Source of the DNA: Gemmatimonadota bacterium
Lineage (GTDB): Bacteria > Gemmatimonadota > Gemmatimonadetes > Palauibacterales > Palauibacteraceae
NCBI GenBank assembly: GCA_963666735.1
Contig: OY762926.1
Coordinates: 2,495,319-2,559,318 of the forward strand
Direction: 5' to 3'
DNA: 64,000 bases
The notes under the pieces were generated by a model that saw only the letters and a list, made by a program, of their open reading frames with translations, did no database searches and was not told the DNA's origin. The position numbers and the translations under genes were made by a program. This document shows, one piece after another, positions 4,979 to 9,801 of the stretch; the first letter of the stretch is position 1, and every line of letters begins with the position of its first letter.

Positions 4979-5406
4979 TCCTCATCCCATTCTCCGAACG
5001 CAATCTCCGTGAGCGATGTTTCGATCACTTCCTCGCCCCGACGCACTGTGATCTCCTGCGCCGCGCCGACCCGCGATTCCCGCCACGGCTTGGGCATCTC
5101 CCGAGCATCGCGCCCGTTGATCTCCAGCATCACATCTCCGTCCCGGAGACCCGCTTCATCCCCGGGCGAGCACGGACGAACCAAGACAATCACGGGATAG
5201 GGCCGCTCGGAAACAGGCGGGAAACTGATTTTTCCGTCCCGACCGATGAGGTCTTGGAGTCCGCCAGGGTAAGGATCGTAGGCTACACCTCGGAAAGGCT
5301 CCCAAGCCTCCGGGCGCGCGGGCTCCGGTCCCGCCACCTGGCCGCATACGACGACCGGCCGCGACAGCAGGACCGAAACCACTAATACGCACACGTACCG
5401 AGACAT
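4948..5406 (-). CDS. Secreted PDZ-domain protein
   Basis: Signal peptide MSRYVCVLVVSVLLS..., PDZ-like GSPGDEAGLRDGDVMLEINGRDA; start chosen at internal ATG (5406) with signal peptide. Confidence 0.45.
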   Translation of the reverse strand: MSRYVCVLVVSVLLSRPVVVCGQVAGPEPARPEAWEPFRGVAYDPYPGGLQDLIGRDGKISFPPVSERPYPVIVLVRPCSPGDEAGLRDGDVMLEINGRDAREMPKPWRESRVGAAQEITVRRGEEVIETSLTEIAFGEWDEECKRDPPLRT

Positions 5407-5447
5407 CGTCACGCCCTCGGTAACCCTCGGGAATCGCATCGGACTTC

Positions 5448-5693
5448 TTACCAGATATCGCATTCGATATCGATTGACGCTACATCGCCGTCTGAATTGC
5501 ACGTGAGGTAGAAGTTGCTCCGGTGCGGCCTCTCGCAGGCGGCGTTCAAGGCATCAAACCCCGCTTGGATGGCGTCGTCGCTGCATTGGTTAGCCGCCCC
5601 GTGCGCCGATTCCATGGGGAGACACACCCCCGAAACAGGCAAGGGGTTGGCAATCGATGTTAGGTTGGCCGCCCTTGCGGTACCGACACACAT
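5448..5693 (-). CDS. Small Cys-rich hypothetical secreted protein in lower-GC patch
   Basis: ORF only; signal-like MCVGTARAANLTS; no recognised domain. Confidence 0.2.
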   Translation of the reverse strand: MCVGTARAANLTSIANPLPVSGVCLPMESAHGAANQCSDDAIQAGFDALNAACERPHRSNFYLTCNSDGDVASIDIECDIW

Positions 5694-5897
5694 CGCCAAC
5701 AAGAATCGGAGACAGCGGGGAGAACAAATCGCGCCGTACACAACATGATACCATCTCGTAAGTTGAAGAAACAACAGCACCTTACGAAGGCGATACCGTA
5801 CCCCCTCGGGGTTCTTTAGCGCAAGCGGCCGAGTAGAAGACGGAGTAGAAGACCCTGGGGTCGCGAGCGAAGTTATTTCCGAGCTCGGCCCGAGGAC

Positions 5898-7025
5898 TCA
5901 GCCCGCGGCGGCGAGGGCCCGGTCCAGATCTTCCTTCAGGTCCTCGGCGTGCTCGAGGCCGACGGACATCCGGAGCAGGTTCTCCGGCGCACGGGTCGCC
6001 GCCCCCTCGATCGAGGCCCGGTGCTCGATGAGGGAGTGGGTGCCCCCGAGACTCGTCGCGCGGGCGATGATCTTCACCGCGGCGGCGACCGCGAAGGCCT
6101 CCTCCCGACCACCCGTCACATCGAACGACAGCATGCCGCCGAAGCCGGACATCTGACGCGCCGCGAGGCCGTGTCCCGGATCGTCCTCCAGACCCGGGTA
6201 GTGGACCCGCTCGACGCGCGGGTGGGCGTCGAGGAAGCGGGCAAGTTCCATGGCGTTGGCGCAGTGCATGGCCATGCGCGCGGCGAGGGATTCGAGTCCC
6301 CGTCTCGTGAGCCAGGCGTCGAAGGGCGACGGTACCAGGCCGCCATCCTTCTGGATCCCCCGCAGCGCTTCAAGCGTCTCGCCCCGCTCGCGCGCGATCA
6401 CCGCACCCCCGGTCACGTCGCTGTGGCCGCCGAAGTACTTGGTCGTGGAGTGCATGACGAGGTCCACCCCGAGCTCCAGCGGCCGCTGCAGAAGCGGCGT
6501 CGCCCACGTGTTGTCGCAGCACGAGATCGCCCGGCCCTCACGCGCGATGCCGGCGATCGCCTCGACGTCGGAGATGCGGATGAGCGGGTTCGACGGCGTC
6601 TCCATCCATACGAGGCGGGTGTTCGGCCTCATGGCGACCCGTACGGCGTCGAGGTCGGTCATATCGACGAAGCTCGCCTCGATCCCGCGCCGCGCGAACT
6701 GCTCCCGCAGGAGTACGCCGGTCCCGAAGTACGCGTCGTCCGCGGCGACGACGTGGTCCCCCGGCGCAAGGGAGAAGATGACGGAAAACGTCGCCGCCAT
6801 CCCGGAGGGGAAAGCGATGGCTTCCGGCCCGCCCTCCAGCGCGGCCAGCGCCGCCTCCAGCGCGGCCCGGTTCGGGTTCCCGCTGCGGGAGTAGTCGAAC
6901 CCCCCGGGGTACGACCCGTCCGCGCCGCGCTCGAAGGTGGTCGAGAGCGTGATCGGGGGCGCGATCGCCCGGCTCGTCCCGTCCGGATCCAAGCCCGTCT
7001 TCACCGCCAGCGTTTCAATTCGCAT
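5898..7025 (-). CDS. PLP-dependent Cys/Met metabolism enzyme (cystathionine gamma-synthase / beta-lyase family)
   Basis: HSTTKYFGGHSD lysine motif region, SGNPNR..., typical length 375 aa. Confidence 0.8.
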   Translation of the reverse strand: MRIETLAVKTGLDPDGTSRAIAPPITLSTTFERGADGSYPGGFDYSRSGNPNRAALEAALAALEGGPEAIAFPSGMAATFSVIFSLAPGDHVVAADDAYFGTGVLLREQFARRGIEASFVDMTDLDAVRVAMRPNTRLVWMETPSNPLIRISDVEAIAGIAREGRAISCCDNTWATPLLQRPLELGVDLVMHSTTKYFGGHSDVTGGAVIARERGETLEALRGIQKDGGLVPSPFDAWLTRRGLESLAARMAMHCANAMELARFLDAHPRVERVHYPGLEDDPGHGLAARQMSGFGGMLSFDVTGGREEAFAVAAAVKIIARATSLGGTHSLIEHRASIEGAATRAPENLLRMSVGLEHAEDLKEDLDRALAAAG

Positions 7026-7142
7026 GCCGTATACCTTTGGAGCCCTGGTATCGAATCAAGGGAACCCTCTTTCGAGATTCTGCTGAGGGAGTATAATTGG
7101 TCGTGTATCATTCGAGTGGAAATCTGAGGATCCCAGGAATCT

Positions 7143-8135
7143 TCAATATGTGAGGAGCAATCTATCTTTGACCACTTCCCCTTCAAGCGATTGGCCTTCC
7201 AACTGAAAGCGTCGCAGCATCGATCTACCGCAATTCACAGTTGCTTCACGCTCGAACAAACCTGAAGGAATCGGTACATCGCAGATCACATCCCCTGATC
7301 GTTTCGAGCCATCGATGCTAAGAGCAACCAGGACACCCCTTTCCTTGCAGCGATCGATTTCGACGAACAAACGCTTGAGATTGAACGTCTGCGCTCCATA
7401 TAGAATGGCTTGAGTACATGTGTACGGAGGGTCACAATATACAACGTCGCCCCTCTTAGCATCAGCCATCGTATCGGCGAAGTCACATACAGCAAAGGAA
7501 GCTCCCTGGAGCCTGGCTCGCCACTCATCCACACGCCGCGCAAAGGACTCCGGGGCAATAGGCTTATGCACACCGCATGGCGTACTCAAGTATCCGTCTT
7601 GGCGGAACCGGACGATTCCCCCGTAGCAAGCTCGCGAAATCATGAGGAGATCGGCTCCGTTGGGCCGGCGGTTATACGAGTCGCGTATCGCCGCATAGCC
7701 CATCTGCGGGGTTTGGGTGTGACGCATCATGCTGTTCCAGCGTCCGCTGTACCAAGTCTTGAGAAGCTCAGGGTCGCGAAGGAGGGTGTCCCAGATCTCA
7801 ACCAGAGGTTCTAAAACGTCAGATCCAACCGCGCGCCGTGGCGCCAGCGTTCCCATGACCGCTCCGCTACCGAGAAACGGCTCATAGTACGTCCCGTAGC
7901 CCCGAGGGAAATACCGCGCGATCTCATGGGCAAATCGTTGTTTGTTGCCAACCCATTTCAGGAGTTGCATCCGGAACGGCGGGACGCCGAACCCCAGCGC
8001 CGCATCCGACGTTGTATCCTCAAAATCCAGCTGTACCGGCAACCCTGCCCTCCCCTGTTGCTTTCGACCCGGTTTCCCTGCCTGAACGAACGGACGAAAC
8101 TTATCCGCTTTTGGGATATCCGCAACCCGGAGCAT
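7143..8135 (-). CDS. Dam-like (D12 class, gamma-type) N6-adenine DNA methyltransferase, R-M modification subunit; true start may be internal ATG at 7970
   Basis: LKWVGNKQRF...YYEPFLGSGAV (motif I) and C-terminal DPPY (motif IV); lower-GC island. Confidence 0.8.
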   Translation of the reverse strand: MLRVADIPKADKFRPFVQAGKPGRKQQGRAGLPVQLDFEDTTSDAALGFGVPPFRMQLLKWVGNKQRFAHEIARYFPRGYGTYYEPFLGSGAVMGTLAPRRAVGSDVLEPLVEIWDTLLRDPELLKTWYSGRWNSMMRHTQTPQMGYAAIRDSYNRRPNGADLLMISRACYGGIVRFRQDGYLSTPCGVHKPIAPESFARRVDEWRARLQGASFAVCDFADTMADAKRGDVVYCDPPYTCTQAILYGAQTFNLKRLFVEIDRCKERGVLVALSIDGSKRSGDVICDVPIPSGLFEREATVNCGRSMLRRFQLEGQSLEGEVVKDRLLLTY

Positions 8136-8183
8136 AGCATTCTTCCTACCCTCGGCAAGCCACCCACGGAACCCTTGAACAAC

Positions 8184-8438
8184 ATGCTAATCGGAGATCA
8201 GCCAGAAATCATCGTCAGATCCCTCCTGCGGACGATCCGCCTCGAGGCGGGTCTGACGCAAGCTGACGTGGCTCGGCAAATCGGGCGGCCCCAGAGCTTC
8301 GTCAGCAAGTATGAATCGGGCGAGCGACGTCTCACGCTGCATGAAGTTCGGTCCATCTGCATCGCGTGCCAAGTCGAGCTCGCCACGTTCGTTCAACGCT
8401 TCGAACGTCACCTCCACGGACCTTCTCATGCAACCTGA
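8184..8438 (+). CDS. Controller (C) protein, XRE-family HTH regulator of restriction-modification system
   Basis: 85 aa, HTH ...GLTQADVARQIGRPQSFVSKYESGERRLTL... (C-protein hallmark ESGER); divergent from MTase, overlaps next gene by 11 nt. Confidence 0.7.
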   Translation: MLIGDQPEIIVRSLLRTIRLEAGLTQADVARQIGRPQSFVSKYESGERRLTLHEVRSICIACQVELATFVQRFERHLHGPSHAT

Positions 8439-9279
8439 CCCGACGTTCCTTCGACAGCCTGGATCTTTCTGGGCAAATGTAAGAGCCATCAGCCAAGTGG
8501 CTGGCTATTCCGTGCGCGGAACCGGCTACGTATCCGCCCACGGACTGAGCGCCATGGTCCGTGCGGTGGAGCGTAAGGGCCTCCAAAGCACTCACCTACA
8601 AAGCGCCGACGGCCAGCCCACCGCCCTGGGGGCGAAGCTCACCAGCTATTTCCGGTTCCGAGCAAGAATGTTGAACGACTATGTTGAGCCTCGCCTAATG
8701 GATCTGGAGCGAGCACAGAACGTGTTCGGTGAATTACACGCTCGCTTGGCGCCCCGCTGCCCGATTCCGGCAAATAAGCAGAGGGGCGAAAAGGCCGGAC
8801 CAGCCTATTTCACGGGTATCATCAACATGCTCATTGAGCAGCATAGCCAAGGGTGTCCAGTAGATTACGACCCGCGCCAACTCACGACGGTTACACGAGA
8901 TGAGAAACCACTGCGAACACTGGCGCGACGTGTGGATGGAGCGTTTCCGGCGCCTTTGAACCCGATCGCCATTTGGGAAATCAAAGAATATTACTACACG
9001 ACGACGTTCGGAAGCCGTATTGCAGATGGCGTCTACGAGACCTTGTTGGACGGCATGGAGCTGTCAGAGTTGTTCACGAACGAGGACGTTCGGGTCGATC
9101 ACCTGCTAATGATCGATAGCCATCGTACATGGTGGAAATCGGGGCGGTCCTACCTCTGCCGTATCATCGACATGTTGCACATGGGTTTCGTCGATGAGGT
9201 GCTCTTCGGATATGAAGTCGTCGAGCGGCTCCCCGACGTTGTGGCAAACTGGGTCACCCGATATCGACAGCCCCACTAG
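8428..9279 (+). CDS. Putative Type II restriction endonuclease (partner of Dam-like MTase; GATC specificity plausible but unproven)
   Basis: 284 aa ORF immediately downstream/overlapping C gene in classical C-R arrangement; low GC; possible PD-(D/E)xK-like ...D...EIKEYYY; no recognisable other domain. Confidence 0.45.
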   Translation: MQPDPTFLRQPGSFWANVRAISQVAGYSVRGTGYVSAHGLSAMVRAVERKGLQSTHLQSADGQPTALGAKLTSYFRFRARMLNDYVEPRLMDLERAQNVFGELHARLAPRCPIPANKQRGEKAGPAYFTGIINMLIEQHSQGCPVDYDPRQLTTVTRDEKPLRTLARRVDGAFPAPLNPIAIWEIKEYYYTTTFGSRIADGVYETLLDGMELSELFTNEDVRVDHLLMIDSHRTWWKSGRSYLCRIIDMLHMGFVDEVLFGYEVVERLPDVVANWVTRYRQPH

Positions 9280-9306
9280 CGAGACAGTAGTAGCGATTCC
9301 GACGGA

Positions 9307-9801
9307 TCAGCTTCGCCGAGCCCGAAGAGACCCGCCGATGAGGACGCCGACGGGGCCGATGACGAGCATCGCGATGGGGTACCATGCCGGTCCGTAGGGA
9401 TCGCCGGAGGCGGAGAGGCCGGCGAGCGAGGCGAGGCTGAAGAAGACGAGAATCGCCGCCAGGACGCCGGCGTGGAGCCGTGGTGCGCGCGGCGCCGCCC
9501 AGGCCGCGAGGAAGCCGGCCAGGATGGTGACCGCGAGACGCACGCCCAGACTCGTGAAGATGAACGCGACGCCCGGCTCCGTGCCCGGTTCGACGCCGAA
9601 GAGCGACAGCAGGAGCCGGCCGGTGAGCACCGAGCCCAGCGTCAGCACGACGAAGCCCAGGATGACGGCCGCGACGCTGCGCAGGAGCGAGGCATCGTTC
9701 ATGCGCGACCACGTCTCGACCGCTTCGTCGAGGTCGGGACGGTGGCCAGGCGGAGGTCCCGCCGTAGAGGGTCCGGAAATCGAGGGTCCGGAAGGGGTCA
9801 T
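9307..9801 (-). CDS. Small integral membrane protein (4 predicted TM helices), translationally coupled (ATGA) to upstream hydrolase
   Basis: Hydrophobic segments; start ATG 9801 overlaps stop of 9798..11717. Confidence 0.4.
   Translation of the reverse strand: MTPSGPSISGPSTAGPPPGHRPDLDEAVETWSRMNDASLLRSVAAVILGFVVLTLGSVLTGRLLLSLFGVEPGTEPGVAFIFTSLGVRLAVTILAGFLAAWAAPRAPRLHAGVLAAILVFFSLASLAGLSASGDPYGPAWYPIAMLVIGPVGVLIGGSLRARRS

What the first reader, a model, noticed from the sequence alone, without database searches (positions are those of the whole stretch)
7030..9300. Low-GC island carrying a complete C-protein-controlled restriction-modification system
Seen in sequence: GC drops to ~50-55% between the metB/metC-family gene and the next membrane protein. 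The island carries a Dam-like gamma-class N6A MTase (minus strand), a divergent 85-aa C-protein with the diagnostic ESGER HTH, and an overlapping 284-aa ORF in the canonical C-R arrangement (11-nt overlap). The putative REase has no recognisable family and would be novel. Given the Dam-like MTase, GATC is a plausible target, but this is unproven. The short M-C intergenic region (8136..8183) should contain the C-box operator.
Basis: partly seen in the sequence, partly recalled or inferred. Interest (0 to 1): 0.5.

Follow-up and report, generated by a model that had tools for sequence, protein, structure and literature searches.

The report
BclI-type restriction-modification gene cassette
A 2.3-kb low-GC insert carries an intact, regulator-controlled restriction-modification system related to the known enzyme BclI (cuts TGATCA), so it is an ordinary bacterial defence cassette, not a new kind of nuclease.

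Summary
Window 7026-9303 is a 2,278-bp insert with GC 0.56, against about 0.69 in the flanks. Two close relatives, with flanks 96% and 89% identical, lack it. It carries a Dam-like N6-adenine methyltransferase on the minus strand. Divergent from it are an 84-aa HTH protein and a 283-aa ORF that overlaps the HTH gene by 11 nt.

The "family-less" nuclease matches Pfam DUF7690+DUF7687 and the PADLOC REase_II model PDLC03423. It is 40% identical, full length, to the gene beside C.BclI on plasmid pBcl1 of the BclI source strain. The methyltransferase is 48% identical to M.BclI and is alpha-class, not gamma.

An AlphaFold model (pLDDT 94) resembles type II PD-(D/E)XK restriction enzymes (BstEII, NgoMIV). 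D170, E184 and K186 are invariant.

The M(-)|C(+)R(+) layout recurs in 78 of 80 homologous loci from many phyla. The operator is a conserved palindrome at 8101-8119, not in 8136-8183. Its half-sites co-vary with the regulator's recognition helix.

The likely target is TGATCA, inferred by homology only. This is a new member of a known kind and of low interest.

The parts
7026..9303 (.). 2,278-bp low-GC insert holding only the M, C and R genes. It is absent from the same site in close relatives.
   Evidence: blastn/tblastn against empty-site loci L089 and L090; GC 0.562 vs about 0.69 and GC3 0.60-0.66 vs 0.86-0.90
7143..8042 (-). Alpha-class (D12/Dam-family) N6-adenine DNA methyltransferase, an M.BclI homologue. 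The probable start is TTG 8042..8040 (299 aa). The maximal ORF runs to ATG 8135 (330 aa), but that start lies upstream of the inferred promoter.
   Evidence: Pfam PF02086 E 2.5e-25; PADLOC MTase_II PDLC03290 matches residues 57-330. 48% identity to M.BclI, E 2e-91. FxGxG at 7857-7880 and DPPY at 7422-7433. Homologue N-termini and the 297-aa gene calls in L169/L170.
8048..8055 (-). Shine-Dalgarno-like GGGGAGGG, 5 nt upstream of the TTG start of M
   Evidence: read from sequence; GAGGAGGG and GAAGGAGG occupy the same place in L170 and L169
8101..8119 (.). Operator (C-box) palindrome TTATCCGCTTTTGGGATAT; family consensus ATATCCnAnTTTGGGATAT
   Evidence: The only match in the 64-kb window with up to 3 mismatches; 0 expected from shuffles. 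Present at 12-17 of 17 specified positions in all 73 other C-bearing homologous loci, and scoring no better than chance (9-11 of 17) in the 5 C-less loci. Half-sites co-vary with the recognition helix.
8098..8125 (-). Inferred methyltransferase promoter: -35 TTGCGG (8125..8120), 16-bp spacer that is the operator, -10 TAAGTT (8103..8098)
   Evidence: Family profile shows CTTGAC, a 17-bp spacer and TATnnT at fixed offsets from the palindrome. The window copy is degenerate and is not called by the strict consensus scan. Inference only.
8111..8140 (+). Inferred C/R promoter: -35 TTGGGA (8111-8116, inside the right half-site), 18-bp spacer, -10 TAGCAT (8135-8140)
   Evidence: Family profile shows TAnnnT at +34..+39 and the C start codon at +46..+51 in 51 of 74 loci, implying leaderless mRNA. 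In the window the start is at +84. Inference only.
8184..8438 (+). Controller (C) protein, 84 aa, XRE-type HTH; recognition helix PQSFVSKYE at 8289-8315
   Evidence: Pfam HTH_31 6e-13 and HTH_3 5e-12. PDB hits 3eus 2e-10 and C.BclI 2b5a 6e-7. 71-75% identical C genes with the same start in L169 and L170.
8428..9279 (+). Type IIP restriction endonuclease of the BclI family, 283 aa. N-terminal helical domain (DUF7690) and PD-(D/E)XK domain (DUF7687). Candidate catalytic residues D170 (8935-8937), E184 (8977-8979) and K186 (8983-8985).

Best explanation
The insert is a horizontally acquired, apparently intact type IIP restriction-modification cassette of the BclI family, in the order M(-) | C(+) R(+).

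The methyltransferase is an alpha-class Dam-family enzyme. It would methylate the adenine of the target, most probably TGATCA, and so protect host DNA. The 283-aa PD-(D/E)XK endonuclease would cut unmethylated sites. By analogy with BclI it would cut T^GATCA and leave 5' GATC overhangs.

Timing would be set by the 84-aa HTH controller protein. A C dimer binds the 19-bp palindrome at 8101-8119. That palindrome forms the spacer and -10 of the leftward M promoter, and contains the -35 (TTGGGA) of the rightward C/R promoter.

In a naive cell there is no C, so the M promoter wins and the DNA is methylated first. As C accumulates it occludes the M promoter and favours or activates the overlapping C/R promoter, which switches on the endonuclease.

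Shown: homology, fold, synteny, the operator and its co-variation with the protein, and presence/absence of the insert.

Inferred: the exact target sequence, the promoter assignments, and the direction of regulation.
For: 1. Identity with BclI. Plasmid pBcl1 of [Bacillus] caldolyticus NEB414 has the same M(-)|HTH(+)|285-aa ORF(+) layout. Its HTH protein is 100% identical to PDB 2b5a, C.BclI. NEB414 is the original BclI source strain, and its methylome assigns TGATCA m6A to a type II alpha methyltransferase (PMC5805893).

2. Similarity of the window genes. R is 40% identical to the pBcl1 ORF over 283 of 285 aa (E 2e-75). M is 48% identical (E 2e-91). C is 30% identical. R.BclI and the window R share Pfam DUF7690+DUF7687 and PADLOC PDLC03423, at 681 and 206 bits.

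3. A second characterised member. pBM69 of B. methanolicus carries the same module. It is reported to encode BmeTI, a BclI isoschizomer, and curing the plasmid abolishes TGATCA-dependent restriction (bioRxiv 10.1101/2025.05.06.652373).

5. Synteny. In 78 of 80 species-representative loci, M lies divergently upstream of R, and 73 of them have a C homologue in between.

6. Operator. The palindrome sits at a fixed offset in all C-bearing loci and is absent from C-less ones. It is unique in the window. Symmetric half-site changes track helix changes: ATATCC with PQS, ATATTC with SQS, ATATAC with PQP, and ATATGC with SRYE.

7. Promoters. Promoter elements are conserved at fixed offsets from the palindrome.

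8. Methyltransferase recognition region. The DNA-recognition hairpin region is 60% identical to M.BclI and 29% identical to E. coli Dam, and it is conserved family-wide.

9. Foreign origin. Empty sites exist in L089 and L090, and the insert has low GC and GC3.
Against: - The target sequence is inferred only from 40% and 48% identity to characterised enzymes. Related endonucleases at this distance sometimes differ in the outer bases of their site.
- TGATCA is not depleted in the window (14 sites, O/E 1.08). It is not specifically depleted in 1.1 Mb of flanks of homologous loci either (O/E 0.59, rank 14 of 64 palindromes), so there is no independent support from site avoidance.
- The window's promoter hexamers are degenerate (TTGCGG/TAAGTT and TTGGGA/TAGCAT), and the strict sigma-70 scan finds none.
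- The C gene has a leader of roughly 37 nt, unlike the leaderless arrangement in most homologues.
- A C dimer centred on the -35 of the C/R promoter could repress that promoter rather than activate it.
- No expression, methylation or cleavage data exist for this locus.
Confidence: 0.85

Rival explanations
1. It belongs to the same BclI-family R-M cassette, but this clade (about 40% identical to BclI and BmeTI) recognises a different sequence. That could be another NGATCN hexamer, bare GATC, or a degenerate variant.
For: Only two closely related Bacillaceae members are characterised. R identity to them is 40%. The first part of the methyltransferase target-recognition region is only 26% identical to M.BclI. 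Site-avoidance analysis gives no support for TGATCA specifically.
Against: The methyltransferase hairpin region that reads the bases in Dam is 60% identical to M.BclI and nearly invariant across the family, and it is clearly different from GATC-specific Dam. The C-terminal catalytic and recognition half of R is very strongly conserved between BclI and this clade. The R and M of both clades fall in the same PADLOC models.
Confidence: 0.25
2. The cassette is a decaying or silenced relic. The genes are intact, but the regulatory region has drifted, so the endonuclease or the whole system is no longer expressed in this high-GC host.
For: Both promoters deviate from the family consensus, with a 1-nt deletion in the GTCAAG element. 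The left half-site is TTATCCGC rather than ATATCCnA. The C start is displaced by about 37 nt. The homologous GTG start of M is mutated to GTA.
Against: All three ORFs are full length, with every family-invariant residue kept. R is 100% identical on six fetched metagenome contigs (11 contigs carry it), so it is maintained in the population. The relatives L169 and L170 share the same long-leader arrangement, so it is a stable sub-clade feature. An active methyltransferase with a dead endonuclease would usually show frameshifts in R.
Confidence: 0.1
3. The 283-aa protein is not a restriction endonuclease. The HTH protein and the ORF would form another two-gene module (toxin-antitoxin-like, or a different defence effector) beside an orphan regulatory Dam-like methyltransferase.
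For: Public annotation calls it 'hypothetical protein' or a DUF7687 domain-containing protein. NCBIfam has no model for it. The HTH protein also hits HipB- and MqsA-type antitoxin models weakly.
Against: It is a full-length homologue of the endonuclease gene in the BclI and BmeTI loci. It has a PD-(D/E)XK restriction-enzyme fold with invariant D...ExK. It is almost always linked to the methyltransferase. C-less loci keep the M-R pair, so the conserved functional pair is M+R, not HTH+R.
Confidence: 0.02

Closest known systems
BclI restriction-modification system (R.BclI / M.BclI / C.BclI) of [Bacillus] caldolyticus NEB414 plasmid pBcl1, and its isoschizomer BmeTI on B. methanolicus pBM69
   Same: Identical gene order and orientation: M(-) | C(+) R(+). 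R is homologous over its full length (40% identity) with the same two Pfam domains and the same PADLOC model. M is an alpha-class D12 enzyme (48% identity). A small XRE-type C protein lies directly upstream of R.
   Different: The C protein is only 30% identical and belongs to another subgroup. The PADLOC control-protein models score it at E about 1e-4, against 1e-24 for C.BclI. The operator is ATATCC-N7-GGATAT rather than the BclI AGACTT-type boxes described in PMC2094064. C and R overlap by 11 nt, whereas pBcl1 has a 2-nt gap. R lacks two insertions of about 6 aa each that are present in R.BclI. The cassette is chromosomal, in a 70%-GC genome, rather than on a Bacillus plasmid.
C-protein-controlled type II systems with divergent M and C-R units, such as EcoRV. 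PvuII, AhdI and Esp1396I are comparators for C-box logic and leaderless C mRNA.
   Same: A small HTH dimer binds a dyad operator placed between or over the M and C/R promoters. C is co-transcribed with R. The family consensus places the C start codon at the predicted transcription start, which implies leaderless mRNA. C-box regulation is described in PMC2175313.
   Different: There is a single 19-bp palindrome, with an occasional third half-site, instead of the 35-bp double-box GACT...AGTC motif of the PvuII group described in PMC2632904. I could not compare it with the C.EcoRV operator because that paper is not held. The divergent-EcoRV analogy therefore rests on memory.
E. coli Dam / DpnM / T4 Dam (orphan or GATC-specific D12 methyltransferases)
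   Same: Same fold family and motif order. K in (F/L)LKWxGxK, and the Arg and Pro of the recognition hairpin (Dam R124 and P134), are conserved.
   Different: Identity in the recognition hairpin region is 29%. The score is just below the TIGR00571 cut-off (114.5 vs 114.85) and far below the Dam equivalog cut-off (65.8 vs 441). The enzyme is paired with an endonuclease rather than being an orphan.
BstEII, NgoMIV, Cfr10I, Bse634I, SgrAI, PspGI and BsoBI (structural neighbours)
   Different: Sequence identity is only 11-14%. The recognition sequences differ. No solved structure belongs to the BclI family itself: phmmer of this R against PDB finds nothing.

Membership tests
BclI-family type IIP restriction endonuclease | Full-length sequence homology to R.BclI | tested here: met
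   40% identity over 283 of 285 aa, E 2e-75. Both proteins hit PADLOC PDLC03423 end to end and Pfam DUF7690+DUF7687. R.BclI is identified by its position next to a gene 100% identical to PDB C.BclI, in the BclI source strain.
BclI-family type IIP restriction endonuclease | PD-(D/E)XK nuclease fold with conserved catalytic D...(D/E)xK | tested here: met
BclI-family type IIP restriction endonuclease | Cleaves T^GATCA and is blocked by adenine methylation | not testable with these tools
   Inferred from homology only. Site-avoidance statistics were uninformative.
Type II restriction-modification system | Cognate methyltransferase adjacent to the endonuclease, with the linkage conserved across genomes | tested here: met
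   M lies divergently upstream of R in 78 of 80 homologous loci from many phyla.
Alpha-class (D12/Dam-family) N6-adenine methyltransferase | Motif order: AdoMet-binding FxGxG, then target-recognition region, then catalytic DPPY | tested here: met
   PFLGSGAV at residues 86-93 and DPPY at 235-238. Pfam PF02086. M.BclI is published as type II alpha.
   About 140 residues, including the Dam-type recognition hairpin, separate FxGxG from DPPY.
Orphan Dam (GATC) methylase | Passes the Dam equivalog model and has no linked endonuclease | tested here: not met
   NF008152 scores 65.8 bits against a cut-off of 441. TIGR00571 scores 114.5 against 114.85. The gene is linked to R.
R-M controller (C) protein | Small XRE-type HTH protein encoded immediately upstream of, and co-oriented with, the endonuclease gene | tested here: met
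   84 aa; HTH_31 and HTH_3 hits. 11-nt overlap with R. A homologous gene is in the same position in 73 of 80 loci.
R-M controller (C) protein | Conserved dyad operator (C-box) upstream of its own gene | tested here: met
   The palindrome is at a fixed offset in all C-bearing loci and absent from C-less loci. Half-sites co-vary with the recognition helix. It is unique in the window.
R-M controller (C) protein | Autogenous regulation: delays R expression and represses M | not testable with these tools
   Inferred from the operator overlapping both inferred promoters.
C.PvuII / C.AhdI / C.BclI C-box group | Close C-protein similarity and a GACT/AGTC-type double-box operator | tested here: not met
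   30% identity to C.BclI. PADLOC control-protein models score E 9e-5 or weaker, against 1e-24 for C.BclI. The operator sequence is unrelated to the BclI boxes.

The most novel reading that the evidence does not exclude
The large environmental clade to which this cassette belongs may use a controller-protein and operator module that has not been described. The clade has at least 598 species-level genomes and is about 60% identical across phyla. The module would be a single ATATCC-N7-GGATAT palindrome embedded in two mutually overlapping divergent promoters, with recognition-helix and half-site specificity variants (PQS/CC, SQS/TC, PQP/AC, SRYE/GC). The clade might also have a target that differs from TGATCA.
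Probability: 0.3. Interest if true: 0.35.

Novelty: new member of a known kind. Interest (0 to 1): 0.2.

Why it matters
For this genome it matters little. It is one more mobile type II R-M cassette that presumably restricts incoming DNA.

Three practical points follow:
- Pfam DUF7687 and DUF7690, and thousands of 'hypothetical proteins', can be named as BclI-family restriction endonucleases.
- The public gene calls at this locus miss the controller gene and over-extend the methyltransferase across its own operator.
- The family offers a clean natural data set of operator half-site and recognition-helix co-variation. That could be used to study or re-engineer C-protein specificity.

Tried and rejected
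- Site avoidance. I computed observed/expected counts (maximal-order Markov) for all 64 palindromic hexamers in the window, and in 1.1 Mb flanking 78 homologous cassettes. TGATCA is not specifically depleted (O/E 1.08 in the window; 0.59, rank 14 of 64, pooled). Nearly all palindromes are 'depleted' by this estimator, so the test cannot discriminate targets.
- Sequence search of R against PDB: nothing meaningful. Only the fold search was informative.
- Phage collection: no homologue of R.
- NCBIfam: no model for R.
- The strict sigma-70 consensus scan found no promoter in 6900-9500. The promoter assignment therefore rests on the comparative profile.
- Known C-box classes. Motif logos are not in the text of PMC2632904, no supplement is held, and the EcoRV paper (PMC1310966) is not held. 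I could not decide whether the palindrome equals a published motif class.
- Terminal repeats of the insert. No convincing direct or inverted terminal repeats were found. There is only a weak resemblance between the left junction and the 22-bp empty-site spacer, which I treat as speculative.
- Gain versus loss. Closer relatives lack the insert, while more distant relatives (L169, L170) carry cassettes about 75% identical at the same site. The direction is unresolved.
- Organism name: the exact-sequence look-up gave no annotation.
- Literature: a full-text search for DUF7687 and DUF7690 found no paper.
Full report
**Observation**

The composition profile shows GC falling from about 0.70 to 0.49-0.60 between 7000 and 9400.
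- 7143..8135 (-), 330 aa;
- an HTH-bearing frame whose ATG at 8184 gives 84 aa, ending at 8438;
- 8428..9279 (+), 283 aa, overlapping the previous gene by 11 nt.

**It is an insert**

I scanned metagenome contigs with the flanking Cys/Met-metabolism PLP enzyme. This returned two close relatives: L089 (flanks 96% nt identical) and L090 (89%). In both, that gene and the membrane-protein gene are separated by only 22-30 bp, and tblastn finds no M, C or R. Blastn places the break points at window 7025|7026 and 9303|9304, so the insert is 7026-9303, 2,278 bp.

The insert's GC is 0.562, against 0.698 and 0.678 in the flanks. GC3 of its genes is 0.60-0.66, against 0.86-0.90 in the neighbours. It contains nothing but the three genes: no integrase or transposase.

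Two somewhat more distant relatives, L169 and L170, have flank proteins about 87-92% identical. They carry cassettes about 75% identical at the same site, together with different extra genes. The site is therefore a variable hotspot. Whether the window lineage gained the cassette or L089 and L090 lost it is unresolved. The composition says the cassette is foreign to this genome either way.

**What the genes are**

The minus-strand protein is a D12-class N6-adenine methyltransferase (Pfam PF02086, E 2.5e-25; PADLOC MTase_II PDLC03290 over residues 57-330). Its FxGxG motif (residues 86-93) precedes DPPY (235-238) by about 140 residues, which include the Dam-type recognition hairpin. That is the alpha-class order, not gamma.

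The 84-aa protein is an XRE-type HTH (HTH_31 6e-13). Its best solved relatives are two structural-genomics XRE proteins, followed by C.BclI (E 6e-7) and C.Esp1396I.

The 283-aa protein is not family-less. It matches Pfam DUF7687 (E 3e-79) and DUF7690 (3e-21), and the PADLOC 'REase_II' model PDLC03423 from end to end. It has 7,233 relatives in the protein database, nearly all unnamed.

**Link to BclI**

A tblastn search of plasmids found seven records. They include pBcl1 of [Bacillus] caldolyticus NEB414 and pBM69 of B. methanolicus MGA3. Both carry the same layout: DNA adenine methylase (-), 77-aa HTH regulator (+), 285/286-aa 'hypothetical protein' (+).

The pBcl1 regulator is 100% identical to PDB 2b5a, C.BclI. 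NEB414 is the original BclI source strain, and its SMRT methylome assigns m6A at TGATCA to a type II alpha methyltransferase (PMC5805893). The pBcl1 285-aa protein scores 681 bits over 285 of 285 positions of PDLC03423, so that model is in effect R.BclI. It has the same two Pfam DUF domains.

pBM69 is reported to encode BmeTI, a BclI isoschizomer. Curing pBM69 removes TGATCA-dependent restriction of transforming DNA (bioRxiv 10.1101/2025.05.06.652373).

The window proteins compare with the pBcl1 set as follows:

| Protein | Identity | E-value |
|---|---|---|
| R (full length) | 40% | 2e-75 |
| M | 48% | 2e-91 |
| C | 30% | 5e-12 |

**Fold**

**Distribution and synteny**

The best 80 are 56-64% identical and come from Acidobacteriota, Planctomycetota, Chloroflexota, Spirochaetia, Gemmatimonadota, Nitrospirota and several proteobacterial orders.

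In 78 of the 80 loci, a homologue of M lies divergently just upstream of R. The other two contigs end too close to R to tell. In 73 loci, a homologue of C (40-66% identical) lies between them. Five loci have M and R but no C. The M-C-R unit is therefore a widely transferred module.

**Start of M and the true intergenic region**

Homology to M begins at about residue 51 of the 330-aa ORF in most loci. The homologues start with M-Q-x-x-L-(L)-F about 20-25 residues before the QLLKW motif. In the closest relatives, M is called at 297 aa and starts at a GTG preceded by GGAGG.

In the window that codon is GTA, but a TTG lies two codons upstream (8042..8040). It is preceded by GGGGAGGG at a 5-nt spacing. 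I therefore take M as 7143-8042 (299 aa). This is an inference. The ATG at 8135 lies upstream of the inferred M promoter. The real M-C intergenic region is then 8043-8183, not 8136-8183.

**Operator**

All 73 C-bearing homologous loci (BclI and BmeTI excluded) carry a 19-bp palindrome, consensus ATATCCnAnTTTGGGATAT, matching 12-17 of the 17 specified positions. The five C-less loci reach only 9-11, which is chance level.

The window copy, TTATCCGCTTTTGGGATAT at 8101-8119, is the only match in 64 kb with up to 3 mismatches, and none is expected from shuffles.

The two half-sites change together, and with the recognition helix of the neighbouring C protein:

| Half-sites | Recognition helix | Loci |
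|---|---|---|
| ATATCC / GGATAT | PQS(F/Y)VSKYE | 48 loci; P in nearly all readable cases |
| ATATTC / GAATAT | SQS | 9 of 10 |
| ATATAC / GTATAT | PQP | 2 |
| ATATGC / GCAT | ...SRYE | 2 |

These loci are not phylogenetically independent. Even so, symmetric DNA changes matched by helix changes are what direct dimer-operator recognition predicts. The window has PQSFVSKYE and CC-type half-sites.

The BclI operator (AGACTT-type boxes; PMC2094064; sequence) is unrelated. The R/M pair has therefore been combined with different C/operator modules in different lineages.

**Promoter logic (inferred)**

An ungapped profile of 74 loci anchored on the palindrome (start = +1) shows the following:
- GTCAAG at +22..+27, which reads as the -35 CTTGAC on the minus strand.
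- A at -3 in 85% of loci. Together with +1..+3 this gives TATnnT on the minus strand, exactly 17 bp from that -35.
- TAnnnT at +34..+39 on the plus strand, 17 bp after TTGGGA (+11..+16).
- The C start codon at +46..+51 in 51 of 74 loci, which is at the expected transcription start and implies leaderless mRNA.

The leftward M promoter and the rightward C/R promoter thus interpenetrate, and the operator covers the M -10 and spacer and the C/R -35. The most economical reading runs as follows. Without C, RNA polymerase uses the better M promoter. Accumulated C then blocks it and favours the C/R promoter. This gives the delay of R relative to M that C systems are known to provide (PMC2175313).

The window's elements are weaker: TTGCGG-16-TAAGTT, and TTGGGA-18-TAGCAT. 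Its C start lies about 37 nt further downstream, a feature shared with L169 and L170. The strict consensus scan calls no promoter here.

**Target sequence**

Both characterised members recognise TGATCA. The methyltransferase region equivalent to the Dam recognition hairpin is 60% identical between the window enzyme and M.BclI. It is nearly invariant across the family and only 29% identical to Dam. That favours a shared TGATCA specificity, but homology at 40-48% cannot prove it.

Site-avoidance statistics gave no help. The window has 14 TGATCA sites, none inside the insert, where about 0.5 would be expected.

**Verdict**

The finding is a real, apparently intact, C-controlled type IIP restriction-modification cassette on a foreign insert. 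It belongs to the BclI family. The claimed novelty of the endonuclease, the gamma-class label and the C-box location are wrong. It is a new member of a known kind.

The modestly interesting by-products are these:
- the naming of Pfam DUF7687 and DUF7690 as BclI-family endonuclease domains;
- the mis-annotation of the locus in public gene calls;
- a well-populated controller/operator co-variation series.

Noticed in passing
window 8184-8438; loci L001-L006: Public gene calls on the contigs carrying this exact locus never call the controller gene. They show either a 74-aa minus-strand ORF or nothing between M and R. The exact 84-aa sequence is absent from a collection of about 15 billion predicted proteins. 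M is called at 330-334 aa, running across its own operator.
   Followed up: partly
L007:4001-4858 and L008:4001-4861 (pBcl1, pBM69): R.BclI and R.BmeTI are annotated 'hypothetical protein' in RefSeq. Their family is filed in Pfam as DUF7687 and DUF7690, and no paper in the library mentions these DUFs. This is an annotation gap for a commercial enzyme.
   Followed up: yes
L009-L088, M-C intergenic regions: Operator half-site variants (CC, TC, AC, GC at positions 5-6) co-vary symmetrically with substitutions in the C-protein recognition helix (PQS, SQS, PQP...SRYE). Mixed half-site operators also exist, in about 12 loci.
   Followed up: partly
L014, L028, L032, L073, L088: Five homologous cassettes (an Acidobacteria gp4 MAG, Actibacterium, Roseisalinus, Paracoccus, Geotalea) have M and R divergent, with only about 115-260 bp between them. 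They have no C gene and no palindrome, so they are C-independent versions of the same R/M pair.
   Followed up: partly
L015, L019, L037 (Planctomycetota): The C start is about 135 bp from the main palindrome. A second, weaker copy of the motif (for example GAATCCGATGTTGGGATGC) lies closer to C, which suggests a two-operator variant.
   Followed up: no
many loci, about 9 bp downstream of the palindrome (e.g. L011, L029, L033, L063, L069): A third half-site, GGATA(T/C), often overlaps the -10 of the C/R promoter. It may be a low-affinity site for negative feedback.
   Followed up: no
L169:3913-4395; L170:1102-1687: In relatives, the same intergenic site also holds other cargo: a 160-aa ORF after R in L169, and two AAA_15/AAA_21 ATPase gene fragments between the PLP-enzyme gene and M in L170. 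The site therefore looks like a small variable defence hotspot.
   Followed up: no
window 7026-7048 and 9297-9304, compared with the L089/L090 empty site: The left junction (GCCGTATACCTTTGGAGCCCTGG) loosely resembles the 22-bp empty-site spacer (TTCCGACCTTTCCGGGGGCTCTG). The right junction keeps only TTCCGAC. This may be a decayed target duplication, but that is speculative.
   Followed up: partly
window 5400-5800: There is a second, smaller GC dip (0.56) upstream of the PLP-enzyme gene, in a region of short overlapping ORFs next to a weak PDZ-like gene.
   Followed up: no
PDB 3eus and 3f6w: The closest solved relatives of this C protein are two uncharacterised structural-genomics XRE proteins that share the PQSFV(S/A)K.E..ERRLD helix. 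They may be controller proteins of the same subgroup, but their genomic contexts were not examined.
   Followed up: no
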